Shown one piece after another: positions 5,156 through 30,100 of a stretch of DNA of 64,000 nucleotides. A program made the position numbers and the translations under genes. The notes below the pieces were generated by a model, which ran no database searches, had not been told where the DNA came from, and saw only the letters and a program-made list of their open reading frames with translations. Within the stretch, counting starts at the first letter, position 1; each line of letters starts with the position of its first letter. Source of the stretch: Naegleria gruberi (Eukaryota); the NCBI GenBank assembly GCA_000004985.1, contig GG738858.1; one strand, given 5' to 3'.

Positions 5156-6313
5156 CTAATAGAAAACTGTATCTTGTGTTGCATGTCTCTCGAATGATCT
5201 AAAATCCTCTCTCTTACCAAGATCTCCCCACAAGAAATAATCGATATGAAGAGTGTTAATATTGGCATTGTAAGGTTCACTGTTTGCAATCTTAATTAAT
5301 TCTTCACAGGCAAATACTGAAAGAGCTCTAAGTTCCACCTCTGGCTTTGAGCCGTGCTTTAAAACTTGGTTGGTTTCAATCTTGCTCTTTACACTCTCAT
5401 CTACGATTTGTAAAATGTTCGACTTGACCAAAGTGGCAGGAATTACATTATCTACAAAAATAGTCATTTGGCCAATGTCATCAAAATCAAATGTTGAGTC
5501 TTCCTCGTGTAAATGCAAGTAAAGTTCGCCTACTATCAATTGAGCCTTCTTATAGAGATACACCTTAAACAATTCTCCATTCTCAGTTTCATAATTAGCA
5601 CAATCATCTAGTGCTTGGGGAAATACATTTACTAGCTCATTGACTAAATAGGCTGCCTTTCCAATACCCTTAACATCTTGATACTTTTCTTCATTCTGCT
5701 TTCTTCTTTCATATTCGGCAATCACTTTTCTAACAAACATTGAAAAAGAGTCAGAGTTTCTCTCCCTCAATCTTCTTGCAGTTTCACTCAAAACCTTTCT
5801 AATGCCTTCAGCAAATGGTTTCAATGCACTGTCTTGGCTTACTTTAATAACAGCATACTTTTCATGTGAAACTTCTTCCTTTGAAGCAATTCCAAAATGT
5901 TGTTCAATTGAAAAGTAATTATCAGAAACAACTTCCATCATTTCAACTCCAAGCTTTGCAATGGTAATATCTTCGGAAAGGAAACAATTAATCAAACCAG
6001 TTTGAATTGTTTCACCAGCTCCCTTTTGTAACTTTTGATGTAATAATTTTCTAAATCCTGATCCAAATTGTAACAAGCCATACAAACAACGATAATTAGC
6101 CTCATGATCAACATCATCAAATTGGAAAGGCAAGGCTGACTTTTTCGAAGTCTTTTCTTTGATATCAGTCAAATTTGGCATGATGTAATTTTCAATGAAT
6201 TTAGTAGCCTCATCCTTGTTGTATTTGACATGTTTGGCATGTTCAGCAACCTTGGCACAACTAGCCTTCACTCTTTCAAATGGTGATAATGTAGATTCCG
6301 ATGAAGATAACAT
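5156..6313 (-). CDS. DUF2419-like protein (possible queuosine-salvage QNG1/C9orf64 family)
   Basis: 385-aa intronless ORF with ATG at 6313. It is a globular alpha-rich protein, and motifs such as TIFVDNVIPATLV and YFLWGDLGK recall the DUF2419 family. I cannot verify this without a search. Confidence 0.4.
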   Translation of the reverse strand: MLSSSESTLSPFERVKASCAKVAEHAKHVKYNKDEATKFIENYIMPNLTDIKEKTSKKSALPFQFDDVDHEANYRCLYGLLQFGSGFRKLLHQKLQKGAGETIQTGLINCFLSEDITIAKLGVEMMEVVSDNYFSIEQHFGIASKEEVSHEKYAVIKVSQDSALKPFAEGIRKVLSETARRLRERNSDSFSMFVRKVIAEYERRKQNEEKYQDVKGIGKAAYLVNELVNVFPQALDDCANYETENGELFKVYLYKKAQLIVGELYLHLHEEDSTFDFDDIGQMTIFVDNVIPATLVKSNILQIVDESVKSKIETNQVLKHGSKPEVELRALSVFACEELIKIANSEPYNANINTLHIDYFLWGDLGKREDFRSFERHATQDTVFY

Positions 6314-7885: not shown

Positions 7886-9421
7886 ATGGATATTTCATTA
7901 CTTTCTTCTGAAACTGTTGCCATTCCATCCAACATGCCAAAAGCCAATCAAAAGTATGACGATAATCACATTTCATACTTTCTATTAAAGTACTTTGAAA
8001 ATGTCCATACAAACGTTCAAATTACCTATCCTTCTCCTTTGAATTCTTATGGACTATTAGGATCAACTGACACGAAACTAAACTCCAACACTTTGCCTGC
8101 TCCACATTTAAATGACTTTTTATTGTTTGCACTTGGCAAGCAAGGTAAAGTTGCCATGCCACTCCTCATCAATTACACATTCGATGAAAAGACAGGAGAA
8201 CTGGATGGTCATTGGATTGTATTATTGAAGAGGGAGGATGATTCCTTTCTACTCTATGATCCAAGCCACTTTATTGCCATTCCTCAATTTTATAATATTC
8301 AGGTGGAATATGGTGATCAAAGTGATGGTTTTAATTGTGGAACGTTTGTTGTTGAAAGAATCAAACAATTCTATTGTCCTTCTGTTGTTGGAATGCCAAA
8401 GGCGAGAACCATTGCAGCAGCAAGAGCTGCACATGCCAAAACTGGATTGAATTTCAATTTTTCTCCACTCATTCAAGGATCAGGTGGTGGAGGTTTAGGT
8501 GAAGAAAATGATTCTTGTTGGTCCAAAGATATTACATTGAGAGGAGATCAAGCATCTTCAATCAAAGAGGCAGTGTTTGAGAAACAGTTTGGTGTCTTTA
8601 CCATTAACTCTGATGATACACTTGGTATATCCAAAACAACTATTCAATTTCCGCCATATTTTACATTACAGAGCTACTCTTACAACACATTTAAACGTGT
8701 TAAAAGAAGAGTTGTTTGGGGACAAGATATTGCATCCAACGGATTGAATGTGAGTGGACTTTCCATTAAAAACATTATTGAACTCGGTTTCCTCCCAGAA
8801 GATGTGAATAGACCAACTGGCTGCTTGGCTATTACTGGTCTCAACACTAAAACAAACACCACTGAATTAATATCCATACAAATCAAGTCAAAGCAACATA
8901 ATGGCAACTCCTGTAGAAGTTTAATTACAAGAATTGACCATCCATTTGGCTCTCATGATTGTACTGAAACAAATGAAACAAACAAAAAACCGAATAACGA
9001 AGACAACCCATCCAAGTCAAAGAAAACACCAAACAAAAGAAAGAACACCAGAAAAGAAAATGCTGAAAAACCAAAGAAAATCAAAACAAGTCATCAACAT
9101 GAGATAATTCCTACTACCACCAATACTATGAACACCTTCCAAACAGAGCCATTCCAAAACGGTACAAACCTTACTGTCTTTTGCAACTTCCAAAATGCAA
9201 ATCCTACTCCATTGAAAAGCAAGCCGTCTACGACTGCTTACAAAATGAATCAGGAAAATATGCATTACCAAGTTGCAAATGACAATCCAGTAAGTTTTCT
9301 TTCCCTCTTGAATAATGGAACTGTTAATGGAAGAAATGAAACTGAGAATGAAATTAAGCAAAAGGAAAATAATAGAACAGATGATAACTTTTTTGATGAT
9401 TACTTTGAAGATTCTGATTGA
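7886..9421 (+). CDS. Ulp1/SENP-like (clan CE, C48-type) cysteine peptidase domain protein with a long low-complexity C-terminal tail
   Basis: The N-terminal region carries the C48 catalytic signature in order: HWIVLL (His), LYDPS (Asp), GDQSDGFNCGTFVV (Gln oxyanion plus Cys nucleophile). Compare Ulp1 HWxL…D…QQxNGxDCG. The C-terminal half is Asn/Lys/Thr-rich. Confidence 0.5.
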   Translation: MDISLLSSETVAIPSNMPKANQKYDDNHISYFLLKYFENVHTNVQITYPSPLNSYGLLGSTDTKLNSNTLPAPHLNDFLLFALGKQGKVAMPLLINYTFDEKTGELDGHWIVLLKREDDSFLLYDPSHFIAIPQFYNIQVEYGDQSDGFNCGTFVVERIKQFYCPSVVGMPKARTIAAARAAHAKTGLNFNFSPLIQGSGGGGLGEENDSCWSKDITLRGDQASSIKEAVFEKQFGVFTINSDDTLGISKTTIQFPPYFTLQSYSYNTFKRVKRRVVWGQDIASNGLNVSGLSIKNIIELGFLPEDVNRPTGCLAITGLNTKTNTTELISIQIKSKQHNGNSCRSLITRIDHPFGSHDCTETNETNKKPNNEDNPSKSKKTPNKRKNTRKENAEKPKKIKTSHQHEIIPTTTNTMNTFQTEPFQNGTNLTVFCNFQNANPTPLKSKPSTTAYKMNQENMHYQVANDNPVSFLSLLNNGTVNGRNETENEIKQKENNRTDDNFFDDYFEDSD

Positions 9422-9487: not shown

Positions 9488-10642
9488 ATGGAAATTTTTG
9501 AATTTGAATTTACAAAAAAAATGAGCAAACGCAAACAATCGGAAATTCTTTCCTTCTTCAAAAGTGGCAATCAATCTGATGCATCACCAAGAAGTAAACC
9601 AGTTGATCCAACTCAAGTGAAAATACCATCTCCATCATCTTCATCATTATTAGTAAATATAATTGATGATGATGATGATGATCATGTTGATGCTGGTGAT
9701 GAACAATCATTAAAGAAAGTAAAACTTGATGAAAATCCAATTCTAACCAAATTGAGAGAATTGGACAATTTTAAATCATTCAACACGACCAAGGAGTTTG
9801 AAGATACTTTTATTTCGATAACTGATTATTTGTTTAATAATACAGAACTTGTGGTTAAGGATAAGTGTTATCGATTGGCTGAGATTGAGTATTATGTTAC
9901 GAGTAGTAACCATAATGATCCATTTTCACATTGTCATCCACTTCAGTCAACTAGAGCAGAGTGGTATTTTCATCAATCTTTAGCAAAGACCAATGATAAT
10001 AATTACAGAGGTGGTAATTATAAGGGAATTGATTTTTCTATTGGAAGTGATAAATTTAAAGGTGGAATTTTGATTAGAAGTTTATTGAAATCTGACAGGA
10101 AAACATTGGTTGAGGGACCATCAAAGTGTGTTGATGAAATACTTGGACACTTTGATTGTAATGAAATTCACGAATTCGTTACACAACACTACAGGGGACA
10201 GAAACATTTCGATGCATTGGATACATCGAGTGTTTGCTATTTGAGACCAATTGACAAACCACACACCGACTCTTTCATTAAGAGTGCAAGAGTTGGCTTG
10301 ACTCTCAAACAGAAAACACAGCAGAAATTGAGAGTGGAGTATATTTTCAGACCATACAGACATTGCCTAAGACCGAAAGATATGAAGAAGGGAAAGCACT
10401 TGATGACCATTGTATTGTACAGAGATTTAATGAGATCTGGTGAGAAGAGTGTGATTAGGAAGGTAGAAGCTGCTACAAATAGTTCAGGACTGCAAAAATA
10501 CTTTACCACCTATGAGGAATATGATGAGTTGGCTTTTGAAGATGTGGAGAGCATTGATGCTTCCAAATTGGGAGATTATTCCAAAGATTTAACAGCTCAA
10601 CAAATCTATGAACTTGGAGGAATGCTGAAACATATCTTTTAA
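9488..10642 (+). CDS. AAG/MPG-fold 3-methyladenine DNA glycosylase-like protein with an N-terminal PCNA-interacting (PIP) box. The true start is probably the second ATG at 9521.
   Basis: The N-terminus MSKRKQSEILSFFKSG contains a canonical PIP box, Q-x-x-I-x-x-F-F, arranged as in the UNG2 N-terminus. The core AEIEYY…HNDPFSH…STRAEWYFH…YRGG…GGILIRSL parallels Pur_DNA_glyco (AAG) motifs TE.EAY…D.AAHS…TPRN..MF…GAGVLLRA. Confidence 0.5.
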   Translation: MEIFEFEFTKKMSKRKQSEILSFFKSGNQSDASPRSKPVDPTQVKIPSPSSSSLLVNIIDDDDDDHVDAGDEQSLKKVKLDENPILTKLRELDNFKSFNTTKEFEDTFISITDYLFNNTELVVKDKCYRLAEIEYYVTSSNHNDPFSHCHPLQSTRAEWYFHQSLAKTNDNNYRGGNYKGIDFSIGSDKFKGGILIRSLLKSDRKTLVEGPSKCVDEILGHFDCNEIHEFVTQHYRGQKHFDALDTSSVCYLRPIDKPHTDSFIKSARVGLTLKQKTQQKLRVEYIFRPYRHCLRPKDMKKGKHLMTIVLYRDLMRSGEKSVIRKVEAATNSSGLQKYFTTYEEYDELAFEDVESIDASKLGDYSKDLTAQQIYELGGMLKHIF

Positions 10643-10765: not shown

Positions 10766-12220
10766 TTACAAAATAGTGCAACGCTTCCTTCGTTCATTTT
10801 CCTTTTTTTCAATTGTTCTTTTCAATTCCTGAACTTCTCTTTGCAATCTAATCTTTTCCTGATCCAGAAAGTTGTAATTTCCCTCCAATTTCTTCACCTG
10901 AACTGAAAGTTGTTCAATCTTATTCTTGGCACTCTTCAACTCCTCACATTTGACATCGTAGTGGAATCGAAGCTCTTCATATTTCATTTGTGACATGCTG
11001 TGATTATCCTCCTCAATCGATAAAAGTGTCCAGGCCTGAGCACTCTTTCTTCTCTCCTCTCTCAATTTCACTTCATTCAATTCCAAAACTTGACTAGTTT
11101 TCTTCAATGAATTTGCCATATTCAACAATTTACTTTCCAAAGCAGTTGATCGTGGTGTGGCATTTGTAGGTTTCTGCGAGGTTGGTGAATTTGATCCAAG
11201 AAATTGCTTCTGCTCCTTAAATCTCGTTGCCAAATAATCTTGAAGTGAATTGAATTCTCTAGCCACCGAATGTCTCTTTAATTGTTGAGAAATTGGACTT
11301 TTTGGTTCTTCATTCGTGTTGGCATTCGATTGGTTTTGTAACAGTGAATTATTCGATCGTGAGCTAGTTAGTAATTTAGCAATTTGTTTCTTCTTATCCA
11401 TTGAAGTCCCATTCGAATCTTCTCCAATCGGTGATGAGCAATTATTAGCCACAATATATTGCAATTCTCTCCTACTTTCTCTTGCAGTATGTGGTCTCTT
11501 TGCTTTTGCAATAATACTAGCAGTAGATTTTGGTTTTGGTGTATTTACAGTTGAGGAAGTTTCAGTTGAAATATTAGAAAGTATCGTCTTTTTCGTATCC
11601 AGAGAATTGAGCTCAATATCAGAACAATCAGATAATCCACAACTCGAAACATCCTCATTTTCATTATAACTTTCAATGTGTCCTAAATTTAATTTTGGAA
11701 TTGTTGGCAATTGACCAATTCCATTATCATTCACCAATGGTTGTGTTGCTGTTGTTGATATTTGTAAATTGCAACTCATTGATGAATTCAATGAAGATAA
11801 ATCATCCAAATCCAAATTGACTGAATCTCTAAATGGTTTCTTGATTTTACTTTGTAAACTTCTTCTTCTTTCCATTTTTTTAGATCTTTCATCCATAACT
11901 GTATGTCCACGAGGTGATATATCAGAAACTACAATATTTCCTATACGATTCTTTAATGGATTTTCAGTTTCGTAATAGGGAACTGACATTTCTTCCAAAG
12001 GTGATGGTGATAAAATTGTCGATTTTGATTCTACTCGTGAATTATTTTTCTTTCCATCCATAAATGACGAATTTCTATTATTTTGATAAATTTGTTCTTC
12101 TTGTTGTTGTTTGTTATTATTCGAATTGTTTAGTTCAATAGGAATAGACGAAACTTCATCTTCATAACCATCCTCATCGACAACCGTCCTCGATGTTGTA
12201 TGATGAATAATTGATGTCAT
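10766..12220 (-). CDS. Hypothetical Ser/Asn-rich protein with a C-terminal coiled coil (real ATG at 12220; the ORF track begins at an upstream TTG)
   Basis: Long intronless ORF. The C-terminal roughly 120 aa is a strongly heptad-like coiled coil (…LKSAKNKIEQLSVQVKKLEGNYNFLDQEKIRLQREVQELKR…). The rest is low complexity. Confidence 0.4.
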   Translation of the reverse strand: MTSIIHHTTSRTVVDEDGYEDEVSSIPIELNNSNNNKQQQEEQIYQNNRNSSFMDGKKNNSRVESKSTILSPSPLEEMSVPYYETENPLKNRIGNIVVSDISPRGHTVMDERSKKMERRRSLQSKIKKPFRDSVNLDLDDLSSLNSSMSCNLQISTTATQPLVNDNGIGQLPTIPKLNLGHIESYNENEDVSSCGLSDCSDIELNSLDTKKTILSNISTETSSTVNTPKPKSTASIIAKAKRPHTARESRRELQYIVANNCSSPIGEDSNGTSMDKKKQIAKLLTSSRSNNSLLQNQSNANTNEEPKSPISQQLKRHSVAREFNSLQDYLATRFKEQKQFLGSNSPTSQKPTNATPRSTALESKLLNMANSLKKTSQVLELNEVKLREERRKSAQAWTLLSIEEDNHSMSQMKYEELRFHYDVKCEELKSAKNKIEQLSVQVKKLEGNYNFLDQEKIRLQREVQELKRTIEKKENERRKRCTIL

Positions 12221-13188
12221 AACGATGCTGTTGAGTAATAAACACAATTTTTTAGTTTGGTATTTTTCATGCTCAAAGAAAAGTGACACGAATTTTGAAT
12301 TTGGATGCAAGAAACTAAAGGAAACTAATGTTTGACGAATTATGAGGAATGGATATGGAAATACGCTAGATTTGGGTCAATGGTGTGAAGTTTGGGTTTT
12401 ACAAAGATGATGTTGAGATTATTTCTGTTGGAAGTTTCTTCTGTAAAGTTTAGAATAAAGATTTGATGTTGCAAGTTGTAAAGAATTATTAATAATAATT
12501 GATCTAATAAAAGATGAGATTCTCTGGAAATCTCTTTGAATTCTATTTGAATTCCTTTCAACTTTGATCTAGGAAAAACAATGTTAGTAGTAACAACACC
12601 ATCAAGGAGTTCTGCGGAGTTATTTCTCCTCCTCTTCTAATAAGAGTCAAAGTTCCTTGTTTATTGTGGAGTTAGTTTATTAAGGATTTATTATTCAGCA
12701 CCAGCAGCAACACTTTTGCTAGGGGAGATAACAAACTGATATATTCTTCTTCTTCTTCATCATCGTCATCATGAAAACGACTTGATGATGGTTATGGAAT
12801 ATGTAATATTGCCATTAAAGTATTTCTTCCTTAATATATTGAATTTAATTAGCATATCTTGTAATGATATTAATCCATTCATGGGAAGAATCTAGATTAT
12901 CTATATGTTTGTGTGATGATAATTTCTACTTCTTCCGCAAGATATCAACCACCAACTACCAATATTAGAGAGAAGGAACAAGCTATTATCATTAGAACCC
13001 AACTTTCTAATGGTAGCCAAATGATTCATTCACAACAACAAAATATCTAGATTCTTCCTCCAAAAGGCCACAATAATTCTTATCTTCCACTTGCTCATGA
13101 TGATGGTCCTACTAACAACCTTCCAATCGGAAAGATTTAAAGGAGTCTTTAGCAGCAACCTCTTAAAAAAATCAACATTGTAAAAAAA

Positions 13189-16555: not shown

Positions 16556-17692
16556 ATGGGACAATCACAACCGAGCTACCCGCCACCACTTGCAACAAAA
16601 TGTTCCGAAAATGAAAGATTGGCTGTGATGCAAAAATTGGGAAATTTTGAGATGGCTCCAATTATGGAATTTAAATACTATTTTAATAGGAAATACAAGA
16701 ATAATTATCAACATTCGGATGAGAGTTTAGTTTTCAATGATGAGAATTGTTCGATATTTGAGAGGGAATTACCTGAAGAAGTGTTTATTCACATTTTGAA
16801 ATTTTTAAATCATCGAGAATTAATCAAAATGAGAAGAGTTTGTACAAACTATGAAAGTTATTGGATTCAAAATTCGAAAGTGTGGAATGTAAGATCGTTC
16901 GAAACTGAAAAGGATGAACCAAACATGTTGTTCAAACCAGTTTTGAATTCGCCCATTGAATCCATCTCTTTTTATTACAAACACTTTCTTCCAACCATTG
17001 TAAATTCATTTTACAGAGGCAACACAATTTCATATAGAGAAAGAATCAAAACTATTCTTTTAGGAAGTGAACGATGTGGAAAATCTGAATTAATGAAATT
17101 GGTTATTAACAATTATCAAGATTTTAATCCATTACTGGAATACTCTCCAACTGATGCCCATCTTTACACACCATTAGAAATTATTCCATTCAAGACCTCT
17201 TCTGAAAGAGGAGATTTGTTATTACAATTTTGGGATAGTTCAGGTAAAGAAAAGAGAATTCCCTTTCTCAAACCATTATTAAGGGAGACGAGAATTTATA
17301 CATTTTGTTTTGATTTGAGCGATGTGAAATCTTTCTTTGAAATGAAAAGTAGAATTGAAACTTTTCAAGTGGAATATTTAAATTCTAATTCATTGAATGA
17401 GGAATTAAAAGAAAGTGGAGCTTGCATGTTGGTGATTGGAATGAAGAGAGATTTGGAGAGGAAAGTGAGTAAACTTGAAATTACTAAATATTTGGAAGAA
17501 TTGAGCAAAGTTAAAGATGGAATCTCAATTAAGAGTTTAAGAATTCAATATTTCGAGTTGAGTAGCAAACAGGATTCAAAGAAAGTATTGGAATTTCCAT
17601 TTATTTATGGGTTGACCATGATTGAAGAGCATATTCCACCAGAAGAGACATTAGAAATGATGGCAGCACACTTTATGAAACCTGCAAAATAA
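16556..17692 (+). CDS. F-box-like domain fused to a divergent Ras/Rab-like small GTPase domain
   Basis: MGQSQPS N-terminus (myristoylation-like). The F-box-like motif is LPEEVFIHILKFLNHRELIKMRRVC. The GTPase motifs are G1 LLGSERCGKSELM, G3 FWDSSGKE (catalytic Gln replaced by Lys), G4 VIGMKRDL and G5 ELSSKQD. Confidence 0.55.
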   Translation: MGQSQPSYPPPLATKCSENERLAVMQKLGNFEMAPIMEFKYYFNRKYKNNYQHSDESLVFNDENCSIFERELPEEVFIHILKFLNHRELIKMRRVCTNYESYWIQNSKVWNVRSFETEKDEPNMLFKPVLNSPIESISFYYKHFLPTIVNSFYRGNTISYRERIKTILLGSERCGKSELMKLVINNYQDFNPLLEYSPTDAHLYTPLEIIPFKTSSERGDLLLQFWDSSGKEKRIPFLKPLLRETRIYTFCFDLSDVKSFFEMKSRIETFQVEYLNSNSLNEELKESGACMLVIGMKRDLERKVSKLEITKYLEELSKVKDGISIKSLRIQYFELSSKQDSKKVLEFPFIYGLTMIEEHIPPEETLEMMAAHFMKPAK

Positions 17693-17758
17693 TACTGTTG
17701 TAAATAAACTAACTTTTCACTTTCGAATAAAACAGATTGATGAAACTTGTCAAAAAAA

Positions 17759-19009
17759 ATGAATCCACATCAAAAACCGTCTACACTATCACCTCATAAT
17801 CAAGGAATACTTGTTGATGATATATTTTCCAATGACATTTGTTTTGAAATTTTATCATTTCTTGATTCTTGGTCAATTTTAAATTGTTCTTTAATTTCAA
17901 AACAATTTCGTCAAGTAATCAAGGAGGGAATAAAACTTTCTATTAATTTCCGACAAGAAGTTAACAGTGGAGGATTAGAAAAGCTTGGAAATAGTTCATT
18001 TATCGATAATATAATTTCATTGAAATTTGGAATAATTCCAAATCAATATAAGAAATTCTTTGATTGTTTGAGATTGATGCATCAATTGACCGATCTTTCA
18101 TTATCTAATTTTATATTTGCTACATATGCTGGTAAAAACAGTGAAATTACTGTTGAGCTAGCCAAATGCATCTGTCAATTGAAAAATTTAAAAAAACTTG
18201 ACGTTAGTTATAATTATCATCTTGAGAATGAAGTTGTTGAATTGATAAGTGAATTGAGAGAATTGAGAGAACTTAACATTAGATACTGTGATATTGGAGT
18301 AGAAGAGGTAAAATATCTCACTAAATTGGATAAATTGCATTCTCTGGATATTGGTATTAATCAAATATATGCAGACGGAGCTAAATTATTAAGTACAATG
18401 AAAAGTTTAACAAAGCTTGATGTGGCTGAGTGCGAAATTGGTGATGAGGGATGCCAGTCAATTACAGAGCTTTATCAATTGACTGATCTCAATATAAATG
18501 GTGATGGTATTGGTGTTGGGGGAGCTAACTGTATTGGTCAGATGAGGAATTTAAAAAGTCTCGATATTAGCAATAATTTCTTTGGAAATTATGGAGCAAA
18601 ATCAATAAGTGAGCTATCTCAATTAGAAATTCTTAATGTTTCATATAGTGACATTGATGAAGTGGGAGTTTATCAGTTACGCAAATTGAAAAATTTAACA
18701 TCTCTTTCCATTCATCATAATGAGATAACTGATGAAGGAACTAAATATATAGTAGAATTGGACCAATTAACTCATCTAGATATTAGCAACAATCAAATTG
18801 AAACAGAAGGAGCAAAATCTATTAGTGAAATGAGTCAATTAACCTCATTGAATATTAGTTCTAATATTATAGGTGACGAGGGAGCTCAATATATCAGTCA
18901 TTTAAAAAAACTAACATCACTAAATGTTAGCAAATGTAGAGTGAGTGAAGAAGGAGTTGAATCTATCAGAAAACAATTGAAACACTTGAAAACGCTTGAG
19001 GTAGAATAA
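17759..19009 (+). CDS. F-box / ribonuclease-inhibitor-type leucine-rich-repeat protein
   Basis: The N-terminal F-box-like motif is DICFEILSFLDSWSILNCSLISKQFRQVI. It is followed by at least 10 RI-like LRRs, for example LTSLDISNNQIETEGAKSISEMSQLTSLNISSNIIGDEGAQYISHLKKL. The real ATG is at 17759; the ORF track starts at TTG 17747. Confidence 0.6.
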   Translation: MNPHQKPSTLSPHNQGILVDDIFSNDICFEILSFLDSWSILNCSLISKQFRQVIKEGIKLSINFRQEVNSGGLEKLGNSSFIDNIISLKFGIIPNQYKKFFDCLRLMHQLTDLSLSNFIFATYAGKNSEITVELAKCICQLKNLKKLDVSYNYHLENEVVELISELRELRELNIRYCDIGVEEVKYLTKLDKLHSLDIGINQIYADGAKLLSTMKSLTKLDVAECEIGDEGCQSITELYQLTDLNINGDGIGVGGANCIGQMRNLKSLDISNNFFGNYGAKSISELSQLEILNVSYSDIDEVGVYQLRKLKNLTSLSIHHNEITDEGTKYIVELDQLTHLDISNNQIETEGAKSISEMSQLTSLNISSNIIGDEGAQYISHLKKLTSLNVSKCRVSEEGVESIRKQLKHLKTLEVE

Positions 19010-21195: not shown

Positions 21196-24100
21196 TTAAT
21201 TAACTAGTCCTATCGGAACATAGCAAACCAAACCATAAATACCTCCATCAGGAGTAGTAGTAGCCCACCAACCATATGTTGGATAAGATCCCATAAAGTA
21301 AGCATAGGTAATACTATCACCAGATGCTGGATAATAACTACTGTACCAATCCTTATAGACAATGGTACTTCCATCGGACCAAGTTGTGAAGGAGCCTTGG
21401 GAAATTTCATGTCCCTTAGTACCTAAGAAGAAGGCATTGGTTTCATTCTTTGGAAGGAGATTGTTGGCTAAGAATGTCTTTTCTGTGGCACTTTGAATTT
21501 GGACCAATGAAGCGTTTGGATGGAAATACTTGCACAAACTACTCATTGATTCAACGGCATAATAGTTTTGAAGTTTGGTAAAGTAATAACATCTTCCCAA
21601 TGATGTACTACAGCTCATCTTTCTATACCATGGATAATCAACCATGTTGACCTTTGGAGGTAGAGTTGAAGGAGCAGTAATGATACCTGATGGACCTGTA
21701 ATTGTTCCTTGAGAATATTGAGAACCACCAGCAAGGCCAAATTTGATAATACCTTCTGGAATGTCTCCTGCAATCTTGAGTGTGTAAATCTTGTAGGAAC
21801 CTGGTGCAATAGTGTATGAGCTAGGCAATGACAAGTAGGTGAAACCAGTGAGTCCAGTAATTTGATCAGCACCAATGTAAACAGGGAAGCTTGGTGAATA
21901 ATCATGGAAGGCATCTTGGTTGTATCCTGCTTGTAATTCGAGAGTGAATCTAGTAAGTGCAGGTGATCCAGTAGCAACACTAATATTGTATGTGAAAACA
22001 GTAACTGGAGAGGAAGCGTTCAAGAATGTGGCAGTAGAAGAGGTCTTACCCAAATATTTAACAGAGTAACCACTGCTAGCTAATGGAACGAGTACATTGG
22101 TCTTGGATGTGTCAACAATATTACATGAGTTATCAATAATGGTTTGGTAAATGTTACTCAAATCGTTCCAATTTACCAAGACAAGATTATTTTGATCATA
22201 GTTCATCTTTTGTACTTGAATTTGACCATAACTATCCGTTACAGCAGAGCCTATTCCGATAGCAAGCTGTCTCCAATTCCAAACTGAGCCATAGAGTGAC
22301 ATTTCAGCATTATTAGAGCCACCAATTGACCAAGAGTTAATATCAACTGATCTAACAGTGGCATCAGAACATGGATTACAACGAGATCTATCATCATACC
22401 ACGAGCAAACAGTACAATCTGCGCCTGGGAAGCGAGGGCTCTTACAATAGGATGGGGAAACACCATAGTTTCCAGGATTTGATGAATAGGTTGATCTACA
22501 GCTACCACAAGAGCATGGGTCATTTGAGAGACCATCAGTAATGTGAATCAATAACTTTTGAGAAATTGACTTTCTACCAGAGGCCAACATCATATTAACT
22601 GCAGTATTAATACCTGAAATTGAGTTGGTACCAGATTGAATTTGGGCCATATTCTTGATGGCAGTTAAAACACTAGATTGACTTGTACCAGACTTCAAAT
22701 CCAAGTGAGTTGTAATAGTTGAGGCAAATTGAATAATACCAATGTTTGTTCCAGTTGGAGAGATGTTTGATCCAAAGCCTGTTGTCAAATTGGAAGCAAA
22801 GTTCTTCATGTTAACAAAGTTATCAGCTGTAATACTTCCAGAACCGTCAATAACAAATATGATATCCAAGTTAAGACCGCATTGACACTTGGTGTATTGA
22901 ACTGAGACAACAGCTGATGCTGAGGTACCATCTTGATCTGATTGGATACTGTAAACAAACTTTTGAGTATTACAACTTCCAGTAACTGGATAAACTCTGA
23001 TAATTCTATTGTTGGCAGGATCGGCTGGGTTGAGGATGGCTGGAGTGCCTGATGTACAATATGAGGAATCACCTGATGGACAAGAAATTCCAGTGAAAGT
23101 GAATGTACCACCAAGAGAATCATAGTCATTGCTCAACAAACTTGATACAGAGATATCAATATAGGTATTGAATTGTGTTGATACAAAGTCATTGACAGCA
23201 ACAGGAGGAGAAGCAAGAGCTGAAATTCCAACTTGAACATTCTTAGTAATTGGATTTCTTGCATCAGAATCAGAAACAGCTAAAACAAAGTTACAACTTC
23301 CAAGGAATGTTGCTACTCTCAAAAACTTGACTTGATTGCTGGCAATTGTCAAGGATTGAAGAACGGTGCTATTACAAGTTCCAACATCTGCAATACTCTT
23401 CAAAACTAGAGTGTCTGCAGTGTCGGCATCCTTTGAAGATGAGAGAGAAATATAATCAAATGAAATATAATTATTACTAGCTCTAGAAATTGAATAGACA
23501 TAAGTGTAAGCATTCAAGGTTGGAGCTTGATTAGGTTGAGCAATAATAATCTTACAAATGGCAGTTTGTCCAGCAGTGTTTGTCAAAGAATAGGAAGCAT
23601 AACAATCACTATTTGATGATGAGGTACTTGCTGGAGTGTATGTCAATTTACCAGTAGAGGATGAGATGGAACCAACACCATTAAGAGTAGCAGTGTTAGT
23701 GATAGCCATTGTGACTGGTTCAGAACCAACCTTTGCTGTTAAACTTGTCTTTAAAGCATCTTCAAATTGAGTAGCAGCAGAATTCTTTGTAGTGGAAATT
23801 GTGTAATCAAGACATCCGAAAGAATTACCAGTGATTGTAACAGTGTAAGTGTAGGTTGAAGTTAATTGACCATCAGTCAAGGTGAAAGAGAATTGCAAAG
23901 TTCCCAAATAAGTAGTAGCATAAGTAAGCTTTACAGATCCATCAGAGTTCAACAAGACAGAGGCACCAGTGTTTTGAGTAATCATACTAACACTTGAAAC
24001 AGTAACTGTATCACCATCAGCATCACTTGCACCTGTCAATAGATCAGTGAAAGTATAAGTTGGATTGGAATAACTTCTTTCAATGGTGGTAGTCTTTGCA

Positions 24101-27100
24101 CTTCCAGTTGGAGGTGTATTTCTAATGACTACAGACATGGTAGCATAAGTTGCAACTTGAGCACCATCATAACAACTAAACTTAATGGAGTCTGTAACAT
24201 ATCGTGTTCCATTAGAAAGAGTGGTTGTGTAAGAAATTGAGGAGCTTGGTGTGTAAACAAGAGATCCAGTAGTGTAATCCGAAACAGTTGTTGTACCATA
24301 TGAACCTTGACCAACTCCAAACAAAGACAATGAATCGCTATCAGCATCATAACAGTATTGAGAAACAACATTTGTCAAAGACAAAGTGTTCTTCCAACCA
24401 ATAGTTTTAGAGAATGAAGTAGCTTGAGGAGCAGTATTGGTAAAAACAAGGTTAACAGTGGCAATATTAGAGGTGGCAATTTGATCAGTAATGGTGTATT
24501 GGAATGAATCAGTACCTGGACCATTAATGAAGGTATTCATATAGAAAACAGTTACCAAATCACTTTGTAAAACAAGGGCGGTATTACCTGTTGGCAATTG
24601 AGCACTACCAAAGTTAACATTATTCAAATTCAAAGAATTAGAACCCAAACTCATGATAACACCATACATGTTAACAACATTGAAGTTAAGTTGACCATAG
24701 GTAAGGACATGTCCATAGAATGTACCTTGAATACCTGCAGCGCCAACAATCCAGAAAACGTTCAAGTAACTAGCACCATTCTTGAAACTCCAACTAAAGT
24801 TAGCATTCAAATTTGTGGTGGCAACAAAGATAAAAAGACCACTTCCACTCAATTCAATTTTACCATTTCCATTGAGACCTTGAGAGAAACAATATACACC
24901 TGGAGTAAATGACAAAACACCTGAAGATGGGAAGTTTTGATCAAGAGAGGCAACACAAGACTTTTGTGAAAGATATTGGTAGAGATTTGAGGCAGATGTA
25001 ACAACAGATGAGTAGGCAGCGTTGTTGACACTCAAAGTACCAGTTGGTTTAAGAGCTTGAGCAGTGAAACCAGCAGTGGCAACGCTTCCAGGAACAACCA
25101 AATTGGCAAAGTTATTACAAATGGTTGAACCCTTAGAAATAACAATGTAATCTCCGATACCATTGTATGAACTGACTAAGCTTGATGGATATAACTTGTT
25201 AATATAAATATAATCACCATCAACATCATAATCGTTCAAAACAGGTTTCAAATACAAGGTATTATTGGTCCAGTGTTGAGTGAATGTATTATCAACAGCA
25301 ACAGGAGGAGTATTAGTAATGGTAATGGTAACAGTATTGGTAACACTTGAGAAACCATCAGTTACAACATAGGTGAATGAAGTAGTGAACCCAGCAGTTA
25401 GAGGAACTGGTGTGTACTTGACAAAAGTGGAATTAACAGAAGCAACAGCACCAGTATTTGGTTGAGTGAATGAAACAATGGTCAATGAATCACCATCAGC
25501 ATCAGTAACTCCAGACATCAAATCAATACTGAGGCCACTTTGAACCTTAGCCCAGTGACGACTGAATGTTAATGGAGTTGCTGTAGGAGCGCTATTGGAA
25601 ATAGTAACAAAGATTCCCTTTGATGCAGAAACTCCCATTCCATCAGTTACAGTATAGTTGAAGAATTGTGATGCAGAGTTTCCATTAGAATTGGTGAATG
25701 TGAATGATTTCTTGTCACCACTCAAAGCAACAGTACCTGCACTTGGATTAGTGAATGATGAAATAACAAGATAGTCTCCATCCTCAGTATCAGCATCAGT
25801 TGGCTTGAGAGAATCAGCTCTACCAATAACTGGAATAGAAATTGAGGAAGTGTGACCAGATACAACAATATCTTTAGCAACTGGAAGATTGTTATAGATA
25901 ACAATGCTGAATGTTGCACTTGAAGTGGACCACCCATCAGTGAATGAAACAGTAACGGAATCAGTACCAGTGTAAGCACTATTGACCTTATAGTTAATGG
26001 TGTTTCCTGAACCAAGAGAAGCAACACCAACCAGTGTCTTTGTGACAGCAGTTAAGGTAACAGCATCACCATCAGCATCCTTAAGATAGGAAGAAAGATC
26101 AATAACAGTATTACTCAAAACAGTTCTCCAGTGATATTTGAAAGCTGCAGTAGTATTGGCTGTTGGAACACTATTCAAAATTGTAATGGAAACAGTACCA
26201 GTGACTGTATCTCTTCCATCAGTGATAATATAACTGATTGGGTTGATACTACCAACAAAACCACTGGAAGGAGTGAATTTTACATTTCCAGAGCAAGTGA
26301 CACTACCTTGAGCTGCAGTAACAGATGAAGAGCATGATTGTAATGATAATGAATCTCCATTAGCATCTGAAGAAGCAGAAACAACTTCAAATGTTAAACC
26401 ATTCTTAGCTGAAGACCAAGAACCGACAAATGATTGTGAATTTGTTGTTGGAGCAGTATTGGTAACAGTAACAGTAACAGTTGATGTTGAAGTGGCAATC
26501 TCATCAGTGATTGTATAGTATACAGTATCTGTAGATGGAGCAGTTCTTGGATAGTAAGTAATGTTGGTTGAGGTAAATGTTGGTGACAAAGGAGCTAATG
26601 AACCATAAACATTAGTAACTCTCAATGGATCAGACTCAGCATCAGTATCGTTAGCAACAACATTCAAAGTGTAAGAAGCAACGTTCCAGTGAGTAGTGAG
26701 CTTATCTGGAACAGCTACTGGGGCAGTATTGTAAACAATCAAGTTGACAGTTGTGGTAACTTGACCGTTTGAAGCACCATCAGTAACAATGTACTTGAAT
26801 GAAAGTGAACCCACAAAGTTTCCAGAACCAAGGATTTTGACAGACTTGCTATCCAAAACAGTTACGGAACCAACACTTGGTTGAGAAGCAATTGAAACCA
26901 AACTCAATGAGTCGCCATCAGTATCATAATCAGCTGGAGCATAATTTAAGATATCAATTTCAATACCTGCCTTGAAAGTTCTCCATGGAACTGAAATAGT
27001 CTTGGTTTGAGAAGTTGGAGCGTTGTTTACAACAGTTACAGAGATTGAACTAGTTGAGCTCTTCATAGAGTCAGAAACTCTGTAGTTAGCAGTGTAAACA

Positions 27101-30100
27101 CCAACAGTGTTGGATGCAGTGAATGTGGCAATATTTGAAGAAACAGACAATGATCCCTTACTTGGTTGAGTATCTGCTGAGAAGGACAAGTTATTGACAT
27201 CCAATGGATCAGCATCAGAAGTGTAACTAGTCAAGTTGAAAGCAACACTTTGTCCGAAATGGACTGTACCTGTAATTGCTTGAGCTGTTGGGGCAGTATC
27301 ATAAACAGTCATGGTGAAGACAATGTAACTATTACCACTGCTTGTGTAATATTTCAATGTAAATTGTTCATTACCCAAATAGGATCCAGAAGGTTTATAG
27401 GTAACAGTCTTCAAATCAGAAGAAACACTTACTATACCCCCGTGGTTTGGATCAGATAATGGTGTTTGATCGAGAGTTGTACCAGTCTCTGAAAGCTTAT
27501 CGAGAGGTAAGAATACATATCCAACACTTGAGTATCTGAAATGAACATTGTAGTATTGTTCAGTACTGGATGGAGAAGTTGATGTAATGTTAATCTTCAA
27601 GTAACCAATTGATGTAGTCAATCCATCACTAATGGTATATGGAACAGTGTCAACACCCAATGACTTGACTAAGCTTGGGTCAGGGAAATAGACAATTTTA
27701 CCGTCAGATGGTTGGGCAGCACCACTGCCAAACATGCTTGAAGAACCTACATTCTCAATCTTCAAATATGGAACATCTTGAATGTCAGAATCAGTTGCTA
27801 AAGAAATAACGTCAATAGTGATACCATATTGAATGTTACCACCAGAGTAGGTCAAGGTAAGATTGGCAGCAACTGGAGCATTATTGTAAGAGTTTGTGGT
27901 CAATGTGGCAGAAGATGACTCAAAACCATCTGAGAGAATAACCTTACAAGCATCACTTGATGCAAATGCACTTCTCAAATATTTAACACCCTTGATTCCA
28001 TTTCCTAAATCAACAAGGGAGCAATAAGAGCTGGAACCAGTGTTGAATGAGAGTGAATAATAATCACCATCAGCATCTGTGAGAGTATTGTAAACAGTGT
28101 AAGAAACTCCATTTGTTTGAACAGTTCTCCAATGAGCAGATGTAGATTGATCACTGATAGATGGCTTATTAGTATTGACAATGTTGACTGTAACAGTGGA
28201 AGCTGAGGAGTAGAGAGCTCCATCATATGCCTTGTAAGTGAATGTCTTGGCTCCAAGGGTTGGTGGATTCTTCAATGTATATCTGAGTAAATTATTTACA
28301 ATGCTTAATGATCCTTCACTAACAGATGATGGGTTAGTAACAGTGAGGGCATCATTATCAGCATCAATATCATTAGACAAGACATTAATATCAACGAATG
28401 AAGTATTCCATTGGACAGTAACAGTATCACTATTTGCAACTGGTGCGTTATCAGTACAGTTGACTGTAACAGTGTTGCTTGCGGTTTCAATACCATCAGT
28501 GATTCTGTAAGTGAAAGAGTAAACTCCAATAGAAGCACTTGATTGTTTGTAAACCAACTTGGATGAAACAACAGAGGCAGATCCTTGTGATGGAGCTGAA
28601 ACAATTGGTGTGGTATCAAATGCCAAACTGTCACCATCAGAGTCCGAACATTCACTCAAAATGTCAATGGAAATACCAGAAACACAAGTGGACCACTTGG
28701 ATACAATATTCTTTGAAACTGCTGTTGGAGCGTAATTTTGAATAGTAACAGGATAGGAGGCAGTCTTACTGATCCAACCATCTGTGTAAGAAATGGTCAA
28801 TTGAGAAGCTCCTAACTTGACAGTTTTTGGAAGATTCCAAACAATAACCTTATCAGAATTAATAGTTGGAGTACCATAAGAGCTGTCATATGCAGAAATT
28901 GAGAAAGATACAGAATCACCATCACTATCGGAAATACTTGAAGAAATATCAATAAGAGATTGATTCTTGGTCCAGTGAATACTTGTTGGGAATGGTGTGG
29001 CAATTGGAGCGGAATTTTGTACATCGATATTCCATTTGGCAACACTATTCAATAAGCCATCAGTAAAAGTAACAGTTACAACACATACACCAGTACTTCC
29101 TGCTGCACTAGTGAAAGTAACAGTGGAGGTGGTGTAGGAAACAGAACCACAACTAGAAGTTGAGGCTCCCTTAACAACAACTGTATCTTCAGAGTCAGAA
29201 TCAGTGACGTTGAACCAAGCAATAGCATTCTTAGTATATCCATTGCTTACATCAGTAAAATGTCTTGTTTCAGAGATATCATTTGAAACTGGAGCGTTAT
29301 CATAAACTATAACATTGACAGTGACAATAGAAAAGCTTGAACCATCAGTGATTTGAACCTTGAATGAATCACTTCCCAAGTATCCAGCATTTTGCTTGTA
29401 AATAACGTTTGGAATTGTAGTAGCATCACCATTTGAGATTGTAATACTACCGTGTGCTGGAGCTTGATCTGGAGTGGTAACAATTGACAATGAATCACCA
29501 TCGTTATCAACAGGTTGAGCAATACTGAAAATGTTAATTACAGAACCAGTGGATTGAGTGCTCCAGTGAACAGTCTTTGAGATGGTCTTATCTTGTGGCT
29601 TGTCATTATTTGTAACAGTAATAGAAACAGAAGCAATATTACTTGTTGAAGGACCATCAGTACAAGTGTATGTAAAGTTTTGAACTCCCAAACCAGAAGA
29701 ACTTGGAGTGAAGGAAACAAATGACTTGGATGAATCCAAAACCAAATTACCAGCAAATCCAGAAGAAGTAGTGAATGATTTGATAGCGATTGGATCAGTG
29801 TCAGCATCAACATCATTGGTAAGGAGATTTAATTGCTTGTTGGAAATTCTCCAATGCATTGTATATGAATCGTCATTGGCAACTGGTGCAGTATTAGTAA
29901 CTTCAACATTGACACTACCAACAGTTGATTTACCATAATCAGAAACAACATAAGTGAATGAATCAGTACCAACAAAGTTATTGGCCTCGATAGAAGTATA
30001 GACCAAACCATCAGTTCCATCACCAAGTGTAACACGAGAGACTGAACCCTTAGAACCTTGAGTGAATGAAGCAATATGGAGTGAATCACCATCAGCATCT

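What the first reader, a model, noticed from the sequence alone, without database searches (positions are those of the whole stretch)
9488..10642. AAG-fold DNA glycosylase candidate carrying a UNG2-style N-terminal PIP box
The N-terminus MSKRKQSEILSFFKSG is a textbook PCNA-interacting peptide (QxxIxxFF) placed as in nuclear UNG2. The core shows the AAG/MPG motif series (E.EYY…DPFSH…TRAEWYF…GGILIRSL). A replication-fork-targeted alkyl-purine glycosylase of this divergent type would be a noteworthy repair-enzyme variant.
Basis: partly seen in the sequence, partly recalled or inferred. Interest (0 to 1): 0.55.

Follow-up and report, generated by a model that had tools for sequence, protein, structure and literature searches.

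The report
Divergent AAG-like glycosylase with PIP motif
This Naegleria gene encodes a very divergent, uncharacterised relative of the human alkyladenine DNA glycosylase (AAG), and its N-terminal PCNA-binding-type motif is a textbook match in sequence but is found only in this one lineage, so it remains an untested idea.

Summary
The ORF is real, but the conserved start is 9521 (MSKRK), not 9488. The window comes from a Naegleria species.

**AAG fold: supported.**
- No Pfam, NCBIfam or PDB sequence match exists for the protein itself.
- 52 of 150 relatives hit PF02245.
- A profile alignment puts AAG's E125, Y127, H136, L180 and R182 on residues that are 99-100% conserved in the family.

**Differences from AAG.**
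- Asn169 is Asp in 98% of members.
- The Tyr162 hairpin is remodelled.
- A five-helix C-terminal domain is added.

The clade is large (2,642 representative clusters across amoebae, Mortierellaceae fungi, a rotifer and bacteria). It is almost always annotated "hypothetical".

**PIP motif: real in sequence, unproven in function.**
- QSEILSFF (residues 6-13) fits the canonical consensus, lies in a disordered tail and follows KRK.
- It occurs only here and in a 99%-identical environmental twin.
- N. gruberi, N. fowleri, N. lovaniensis, Willaertia and 15 other eukaryotic members lack it.

**Verdict:** a probable nuclear DNA glycosylase of a divergent AAG-superfamily clade. PCNA tethering is plausible but lineage-specific.

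The parts
9521..10642 (+). Full coding sequence (373 aa plus stop) of the AAG-like protein. It is intronless and collinear with its homologues from end to end.
   Evidence: ORF list. Alignment with 10 homologues. Start-codon analysis.
9488..9520 (+). In-frame upstream ATG extension (MEIFEFEFTKK). It is probably 5' UTR and not part of the protein.
   Evidence: The twin strain has an in-frame stop here, and N. gruberi has a stop upstream. The A-rich context is conserved only at 9521.
9527..9535 (+). N-terminal basic motif KRK (residues 3-5). It is NLS-like and forms the positive flank of the PIP-like motif. It is conserved across eukaryotic family members.
   Evidence: M[SA]KRK in Naegleria, MVVTKRK in Dictyostelium, LKRK in Mortierellaceae. 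Basic runs listed.
9536..9559 (+). Canonical PIP-box-type motif QSEILSFF (residues 6-13). It is specific to this lineage.
   Evidence: Regex scans. DNA alignment shows N. gruberi has QEEI-STTD in frame. pLDDT below 50 over residues 1-69, i.e. disordered.
9560..9733 (+). Disordered Ser/Asp-rich linker containing a second basic patch, KKVK (residues 65-68, 9713..9724), which is a probable NLS.
   Evidence: pLDDT 26-38 over residues 1-69. KKVK is conserved in Naegleria orthologues. Composition.
9734..10375 (+). AAG/MPG-fold catalytic domain (residues 72-285).
9887..9889 (+). Glu123, aligned to the catalytic general base Glu125 of human AAG (motif E-I-E-Y-Y).
   Evidence: hhalign register. Glu in 100% of 150 diverse members. 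The neighbouring Y125 (AAG Y127) is 99% conserved.
10031..10033 (+). Asp171, aligned to the AAG specificity residue Asn169. It is the family-defining substitution.
   Evidence: hhalign register. Asp in 98% and Asn in 2% of 150 members.
10076..10078 (+). Arg186 in GGILIRS, aligned to AAG Arg182.
   Evidence: hhalign. Arg in 100% of members.
9962..10027 (+). Remodelled, longer loop (W148 to G169, including the Y-R-G-G-N-Y-K-G motif). It replaces the AAG beta-hairpin that carries the intercalating Tyr162.
   Evidence: Insertions and gaps in the hhalign alignment. Column counts: the Tyr162-aligned column is G/S/N, while Y162 is 87% Tyr and Y167 is 64% Tyr plus 28% Phe. Model secondary structure.
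10394..10639 (+). C-terminal five-helix domain (residues 292-373) that follows the KKGK motif. It may contain an HTH.
   Evidence: Helices at 221-235, 239-247, 250-266, 276-282 and 288-297 in core numbering, at high pLDDT. Present in 140/150 members. A few members hit HTH_29, HTH_23 or HTH_40. Weak profile match to the IS5376 transposase N-terminal HTH.

Best explanation
The gene (9521..10642) encodes a nuclear DNA N-glycosylase belonging to a large, uncharacterised and highly divergent clade of the AAG/MPG structural superfamily.

**Shown**
- The core adopts the AAG fold.
- It retains the residues that in human AAG activate the hydrolytic water (Glu125, here Glu123). It also retains residues that I recall, from the AAG literature, as lining the flipped-base pocket or contacting DNA: Tyr127 (here Tyr125), His136 (His137), Leu180 (Leu184) and Arg182 (Arg186).

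**Inferred**
- The enzyme flips a damaged or modified base out of duplex DNA into this pocket and hydrolyses the N-glycosidic bond, starting base excision repair.
- Three family-wide differences suggest a substrate range or DNA-engagement mode distinct from canonical AAG: Asn169 becomes Asp171, the intercalating hairpin is remodelled into a longer Y-x-G-G-x-Y-K-G loop, and a C-terminal helical (possibly HTH) domain is added.
- The disordered N-terminal tail carries two basic patches (KRK, KKVK) that probably direct nuclear import. This layout is shared by the eukaryotic members.
- In this Naegleria lineage only, the tail has also acquired a canonical PIP-type motif (QSEILSFF) directly after KRK. 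It plausibly tethers the enzyme to PCNA, as in UNG2, MSH6 and Lig1. I put this last step at roughly 50%.
For: **Fold**
- Foldseek finds only AAG structures as significant, at E=1.2e-4 and prob 1.00.

**Homology**
- 52/150 diverse relatives hit PF02245 at E<=0.01, best 3.7e-8.
- Hits span the whole model, e.g. positions 8-180 of 181.
- hhalign of the family against vertebrate AAG gives E=1.2e-4 over 154 columns with all motifs in register.

**Active site**
- Equivalents of E125, Y127, H136, L180 and R182 are 99-100% conserved across 150 representatives at about 30% pairwise identity.

**Nuclear targeting**
- KRK and KKVK patches are conserved, and residues 1-69 are disordered.

**PIP motif**
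- Exact consensus match, disordered context and a positive N-terminal flank.
- PMC6881253 shows that positive flanks strongly raise PCNA affinity, and lists the UNG2 and MSH6 N-terminal PIP peptides.
- Chance expectation in the first 20 residues is about 2e-4 to 1e-3.

**Housekeeping character**
- Bacterial members are stand-alone chromosomal genes.
- The family is essentially absent from phages and plasmids.
Against: - No biochemical data exist for any member of the clade. Searches for the Dictyostelium orthologue and for AAG-like clades found nothing.
- The window protein itself gets no Pfam hit even at E<=10.
- The residue mapping rests on a profile alignment with a modest E-value, not on a coordinate superposition.
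- No fixed counterpart of the intercalating Tyr162 could be identified.
- The PIP motif is absent from N. gruberi, N. fowleri, N. lovaniensis, Willaertia and an environmental Naegleria-like sequence, and from 15 other eukaryotic members. It is therefore a recent gain or an accident in a fast-evolving tail.
Confidence: 0.62

Rival explanations
1. The same AAG-like nuclear glycosylase, but QSEILSFF is a non-functional accident of a rapidly evolving disordered tail. The enzyme is not PCNA-tethered and works as a free-scanning BER glycosylase like its orthologues.
For: - The motif is present only in the window and its 99% twin.
- N. gruberi has QEEI-STTD at the homologous position, and the other homologues have unrelated acidic or Ser-rich sequence.
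- None of the 22 other eukaryotic members has a terminal PIP-like motif.
- The looser consensus occurs about as often as expected among window ORFs: 2 seen, 1.2 expected.
- The tail is otherwise poorly conserved.
Against: - The strict form (Q..I..FF) within the first 20 residues is expected in only about 2e-4 of proteins.
- It sits in a disordered segment directly after KRK. PMC6881253 associates positive flanks with strong PCNA binding.
- It resembles the N-terminal PIPs of UNG2 and MSH6 in position and in the 'SFF' core (PMC6881253).
- Short linear motifs are known to arise de novo in single lineages.
Confidence: 0.45
2. The family is an N-glycosidase that acts on something other than duplex DNA lesions, for example free or ADP-ribose-linked nucleotides, RNA, or an enzymatically modified (epigenetic) base. 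'Alkylpurine repair' would then be the wrong label.
For: - Asn169 is replaced by Asp in 98% of members and the DNA-intercalating hairpin is remodelled.
- Sporadic fusions to DUF4326. This domain is proposed to process ribose-linked phosphates of ADPr derivatives and is often fused to N-glycosidase-type domains (PMC9503650).
- No member has been assayed.
Against: - Only 2 of the roughly 270 members examined here (P0156, P0328) carry the DUF4326 fusion.
- The eukaryotic members carry NLS-like tails.
- The DNA-contacting Arg182 equivalent is invariant.
- An extra helical, possibly HTH, domain is consistent with nucleic-acid binding.
- As far as I recall (not checked here), AAG is the only catalytic family described in this fold, and it acts on DNA.
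Confidence: 0.12
3. A catalytically dead AAG-fold protein that works as a DNA-binding reader or regulator through its C-terminal helical domain.
For: - The added C-terminal helical domain has weak HTH similarity.
- No activity data exist.
Against: - The catalytic Glu and the pocket Tyr and His are 99-100% conserved across very divergent bacteria and eukaryotes. That pattern is what an active enzyme predicts, not a decayed one.
Confidence: 0.05

Closest known systems
Human alkyladenine DNA glycosylase AAG/MPG (PDB 1EWN, 1F4R; Pfam PF02245 Pur_DNA_glyco) and bacterial Mpg (COG2094)
   Same: - Same order of motifs.
- Equivalents of catalytic Glu125, Tyr127, His136, Leu180, Arg182, the GPS(K) turn and the ARVG strand are all conserved.
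- A few clade members are auto-annotated 'Mpg' or cross the Pfam threshold.
   Different: - 18-19% identity, and no Pfam, NCBIfam or PDB sequence hit for this protein.
- Asn169 is Asp in 98% of members.
- The Tyr162 hairpin is replaced by a longer Y-x-G-G-x-Y-K-G loop.
- Extra family motifs are present: H-x-D-P-F-x-H, W-Y-F-H and K-K-G-K.
- Two extra N-terminal helices and a five-helix C-terminal domain of about 85 residues are present in 140/150 members.
N-terminal PIP boxes of nuclear UNG2, MSH6 and DNA ligase I
   Same: - Canonical Qxx[IL]xSFF motif within the first ~13 residues of a disordered, basic N-terminal tail of a DNA-repair enzyme.
- Compare UNG2 MIGQKTLYSFF and MSH6 RQSTLYSFF (PMC6881253).
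   Different: - Those motifs are functionally validated, and to my knowledge conserved across their orthologues (not checked here).
- This one is confined to one Naegleria lineage and is untested.
Human MPG-PCNA association
   Same: An AAG-fold glycosylase linked to PCNA. MPG is listed among PCNA-interacting BER glycosylases (PMC5264654, PMC9690074).
   Different: - As far as I know, human MPG has no canonical N-terminal PIP box. This is from memory and was not checked here.
- The only consensus match seen in vertebrate AAGs is the internal QKPLRFYF stretch near the C-terminal end of the catalytic domain.

Membership tests
AAG/MPG family (Pfam PF02245 Pur_DNA_glyco) | Sequence match to the family HMM above the gathering threshold (27 bits) | tested here: not met
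   No hit for the window protein even at E<=10. However, 52/150 relatives hit at E<=0.01, best 3.7e-8, and a few members carry a precomputed PF02245 assignment.
AAG/MPG family (Pfam PF02245 Pur_DNA_glyco) | AAG single-domain alpha/beta fold | tested here: met
   [not shown]
AAG/MPG family (Pfam PF02245 Pur_DNA_glyco) | Catalytic general-base Glu (human E125) plus Tyr127 and His136 (recalled as pocket residues) and Arg182 | tested here: met
   The profile alignment puts them on E123, Y125, H137 and R186, each 99-100% conserved in 150 members. The mapping is by alignment, not coordinate superposition.
AAG/MPG family (Pfam PF02245 Pur_DNA_glyco) | Intercalating Tyr162 at the tip of the beta3-beta4 hairpin | tested here: inconclusive
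   The aligned column is G/S/N. The hairpin is replaced by a longer loop with conserved Tyr at positions 162 (87%) and 167 (64% Y, 28% F), which could serve as the wedge.
AAG/MPG family (Pfam PF02245 Pur_DNA_glyco) | Asn169 specificity residue (recalled from the AAG literature as excluding normal guanine) | tested here: not met
   The aligned residue is Asp171, with Asp in 98% of the clade.
AAG/MPG family (Pfam PF02245 Pur_DNA_glyco) | Excision of alkylated or deaminated purines (3mA, 7mG, epsilon-A, Hx) from DNA | not testable with these tools
   Needs enzyme assays. No literature on any clade member was found.
Canonical PIP-box PCNA ligands (UNG2/MSH6/Lig1 type) | Consensus Q-x-x-[ILM]-x-x-[FY]-[FY] | tested here: met
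   QSEILSFF at residues 6-13.
Canonical PIP-box PCNA ligands (UNG2/MSH6/Lig1 type) | Located in an accessible, intrinsically disordered region with net positive flanks | tested here: met
   pLDDT 26-38 over residues 1-69. KRK lies immediately upstream and K immediately downstream. The flank rule is from PMC6881253.
Canonical PIP-box PCNA ligands (UNG2/MSH6/Lig1 type) | Conservation of the motif among orthologues | tested here: not met
   Absent from N. gruberi, N. fowleri (2 paralogues), N. lovaniensis (2), Willaertia, the environmental P0003 and 15 other eukaryotic members.
Canonical PIP-box PCNA ligands (UNG2/MSH6/Lig1 type) | Direct binding to PCNA | not testable with these tools
   Needs ITC or pull-down with Naegleria PCNA, or at least a multimer structure prediction, which was not available here.

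The most novel reading that the evidence does not exclude
The clade is a functionally distinct class of AAG-fold glycosylase. Its Asp-for-Asn169 pocket, remodelled wedge loop and extra helical DNA-binding domain would give it a substrate that canonical AAG does not handle, for example a different alkylation or oxidation lesion, or an enzymatically modified base. It would fill the 'missing MPG' slot in amoebae, Mortierellaceae and bdelloid rotifers. In this Naegleria lineage it would have been newly coupled to the replication fork by de novo evolution of a canonical PIP box.
Probability: 0.2. Interest if true: 0.65.

Novelty: new variant of a known kind. Interest (0 to 1): 0.42.

Why it matters
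- AAG/MPG is one of the best-studied DNA glycosylases, and I could find no description of this sister clade.
- The clade has at least 2,642 representative clusters in bacteria and scattered eukaryotes. It is invisible to Pfam for many members and almost always annotated 'hypothetical'.
- Repair-gene inventories based on KEGG or Pfam may therefore wrongly score organisms as lacking an AAG-type enzyme. Bdelloid rotifers are reported as MPG-less (PMC6264785), yet a bdelloid carries a member of this clade.
- The invariant catalytic Glu combined with a systematic Asn169-to-Asp change gives a ready structure-function test of how AAG-fold enzymes choose substrates.
- The lineage-specific canonical PIP box is a small, testable example of de novo short-linear-motif evolution on a repair enzyme.

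Tried and rejected
**Searches that found nothing or added nothing**
- Direct Pfam, NCBIfam and PDB sequence searches with the protein and with an 11-sequence profile gave nothing.
- A 150-sequence profile against PDB sequences found only weak C-terminal HTH-like matches and not AAG. The sequence link had to be made through member-by-member Pfam scans and hhalign.
- The AFDB fold library was unavailable.
- Exact-sequence look-ups of two window proteins found no record, so the species could not be named.
- No APIM motif is present.
- Literature searches for the Dictyostelium orthologue, for PF02245-related clades and for 'AAG-like' families found no description of this clade.

**Checks that left a question open**
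- The flanks of the N. gruberi (L001) and environmental (L002) loci match nothing in the 64-kb window. Orthologue versus recent paralogue therefore stays unresolved.

**Ideas rejected**
- *Yeast origin.* This was my first impression from the 34% GC content and the low-complexity neighbouring proteins. The homologues are all Naegleria/Willaertia.
- *The PIP gap in orthologues is a gene-model or intron artefact.* The DNA alignment shows continuous in-frame sequence in N. gruberi.
- *A defence or DNA-modification role in bacteria.* Two neighbourhoods showed unrelated housekeeping genes, and phage and plasmid collections gave one marginal hit each.

Full report
**What is in the sequence**

The window is about 34% GC. 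All close homologues come from Naegleria gruberi, N. fowleri, N. lovaniensis and Willaertia magna, plus a 99%-identical environmental twin. The window is therefore a heterolobosean amoeba genome. Neighbouring genes are ordinary eukaryotic genes with no evident functional link.

**Start codon**

All homologues begin M[SA]KRK. In the collinear, roughly 97%-identical twin contig L003, the equivalent of the 9488 ATG is followed by an in-frame stop. N. gruberi also has a stop just upstream. The window, twin and N. gruberi loci share the A-rich context acaaaaaaaATG at the MSKRK codon. The real CDS is 9521..10642 (373 aa), and residue numbers below use this start.

**Is it an AAG-fold protein?**

Sequence libraries see nothing. 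Pfam and NCBIfam give no hit at E<=10, and PDB gives none by phmmer or with an 11-sequence profile. Structure and transitive homology give a clear answer.

- Foldseek independently found only AAG structures (E=1.2e-4, prob 1.00, TM 0.53 normalised to AAG).
- An exhaustive HMM search with a core alignment found 2,642 representative clusters at E<=1e-3, of which 555 were at E<=1e-30.
- When each of the 150 members was scanned on its own, 52 hit PF02245 at E<=0.01 (best 3.7e-8). The hits often span the whole model.
- hhalign of the family profile against a vertebrate AAG profile gave E=1.2e-4 over 154 columns, with the motifs in register.

**Active site**

In that register, the conservation across 150 members at about 30% mutual identity is as follows.

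| Human AAG residue | Window residue | Conservation in the family |
|---|---|---|
| Glu125 (catalytic) | Glu123 | 100% Glu |
| Tyr127 | Tyr125 | 99% |
| His136 | His137 | 99% |
| Leu180 | Leu184 | 99% |
| Arg182 | Arg186 | 100% |
| Asn169 | Asp171 | 98% Asp |
| Tyr162 (intercalating) | Gly164 | variable G/S/N column |

The GPS and ARVG motifs are also retained. This pattern is what an active base-flipping hydrolase predicts. The Tyr162 column falls inside a longer loop with the conserved motif Y-x-G-G-x-Y-K-G. Tyr162 (87% Tyr) or Tyr167 (64% Tyr, 28% Phe) of this protein could be the wedge, but without coordinates I could not decide. The functional roles I give for the AAG residues are from my own knowledge of the AAG literature, not from a tool.

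**Added parts**

**Distribution and annotation**

Eukaryotic members include Dictyostelium (DDB_G0281981), Polysphondylium, Planoprotostelium, Pelomyxa, Mortierellaceae, a basidiomycete and the bdelloid rotifer Didymodactylos. Bacterial members include cyanobacteria, Parabeggiatoa and Myxococcota. Nearly all are named 'hypothetical protein', and a few JGI entries say 'Mpg'.

Two bacterial neighbourhoods show stand-alone genes among unrelated housekeeping genes. Phage and plasmid collections give one marginal hit each. I found no paper describing the clade. A bdelloid DNA-repair inventory scores MPG as absent (PMC6264785), which suggests such inventories miss this clade.

Two members are fused to DUF4326. 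That domain has been proposed to process ribose-linked phosphates of ADP-ribose derivatives (PMC9503650). This keeps a non-DNA substrate alive as a minor rival explanation.

**The PIP-like motif**

*Points in favour*
- QSEILSFF (residues 6-13; 9536..9559) fits Q-x-x-[ILM]-x-x-[FY]-[FY] exactly.
- It lies in a tail predicted to be disordered (pLDDT 26-38 over residues 1-69).
- KRK comes directly before it and K directly after.
- PMC6881253 lists the N-terminal UNG2 (MIGQKTLYSFF) and MSH6 (RQSTLYSFF) peptides. It also shows that positive flanks can raise PCNA affinity by orders of magnitude.
- From the window's composition, the strict motif is expected within the first 20 residues of about 2e-4 of proteins.

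*Points against*
- The motif is found only here and in the 99% twin.
- N. gruberi reads MSKRKQEEISTTDS in frame at the homologous DNA, so this is not an intron or frameshift artefact.
- The other Naegleria/Willaertia homologues and 15 further eukaryotic members have no PIP-like motif in their tails.
- No APIM motif is present.

What the eukaryotic members do share is an N-terminal KRK-type patch, an acidic or Ser-rich linker, and in the Naegleria copies a second basic patch (KKVK here). This is an NLS-like layout. A neighbour-joining tree puts the window gene as sister to the N. gruberi gene, and N. fowleri and N. lovaniensis each carry a second paralogue. The loci are not syntenic, so orthologue versus recent paralogue is unresolved.

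I rate PCNA binding at about 50%. The motif is a recent gain, whether functional or accidental. Human MPG is already listed as a PCNA partner (PMC5264654, PMC9690074), so PCNA linkage of an AAG-fold enzyme has precedent.

**Verdict**

The AAG-fold call is right, and 'divergent' is apt. The protein fails the Pfam membership test and one defining residue test (Asn169). It passes the fold and catalytic-residue tests. I therefore file it as a member of a divergent, undescribed clade of the AAG superfamily and not as a canonical MPG. The PIP box is real as sequence, but it is lineage-specific and untested. Interest is moderate. The clade as a whole is more noteworthy than the PIP box that drew attention to it.

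Noticed in passing
window 5156..6313 (-): A gene with a Q_salvage domain (PF10343, E=3e-30; the queuosine-salvage family, QNG1-like from memory) lies about 3 kb upstream. It is another nucleoside/base N-glycosidase-type enzyme. The proximity is probably coincidental in a eukaryotic genome.
   Followed up: no
window 21196..32256 (-): A single uninterrupted 3,686-aa ORF with 17 Big_9, 13 Cadherin_4 and 9 Cadherin_5 matched stretches (overlapping repeat families) plus a VWA domain. This is a giant bacterial-type Ig/cadherin adhesin-like protein in an amoeba genome and may derive from horizontal transfer.
   Followed up: partly
window 16556..17692 (+) and 17747..19009 (+): Two adjacent F-box genes. 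One fuses an F-box to a Ras/Arf-like small GTPase domain, and the other is F-box plus LRR. The F-box-GTPase fusion is an unusual architecture.
   Followed up: no
L001 and L003 (both from ENA sample ERZ929261): The same metagenome assembly holds a contig that encodes a protein identical to the N. gruberi family member (P0002). It also holds a contig 97% identical to the window (P0001, with the PIP motif). The two loci are not syntenic. Either two Naegleria strains are present, or one genome has both a PIP-bearing and a PIP-less paralogue.
   Followed up: partly
P0004-P0007 (N. lovaniensis, N. fowleri): Both species carry two paralogues of the family, clades A and B, at about 67% identity. Neither has a PIP-like motif. 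The B copies have a long acidic insert in the N-terminal tail.
   Followed up: partly
P0156, P0328 (environmental family members): The AAG-like domain is fused to DUF4326, which has been proposed to be a rhodanese-phosphatase-type domain acting on ADP-ribose-derived phosphates (PMC9503650). This hints that some clade members may work in nucleotide or ADPr metabolism.
   Followed up: partly
P0349 (Didymodactylos carnosus) versus PMC6264785: Bdelloid rotifers are reported to lack MPG by KEGG orthology, yet a bdelloid encodes a member of this divergent AAG-like clade. Standard inventories probably overlook it.
   Followed up: partly
window 7886..9421 (+) and 10766..12310 (-): Both immediate neighbours are long, low-complexity (Asn/Ser/Lys-rich) proteins with no Pfam match. 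No identical sequence is on record for the upstream one.
   Followed up: partly
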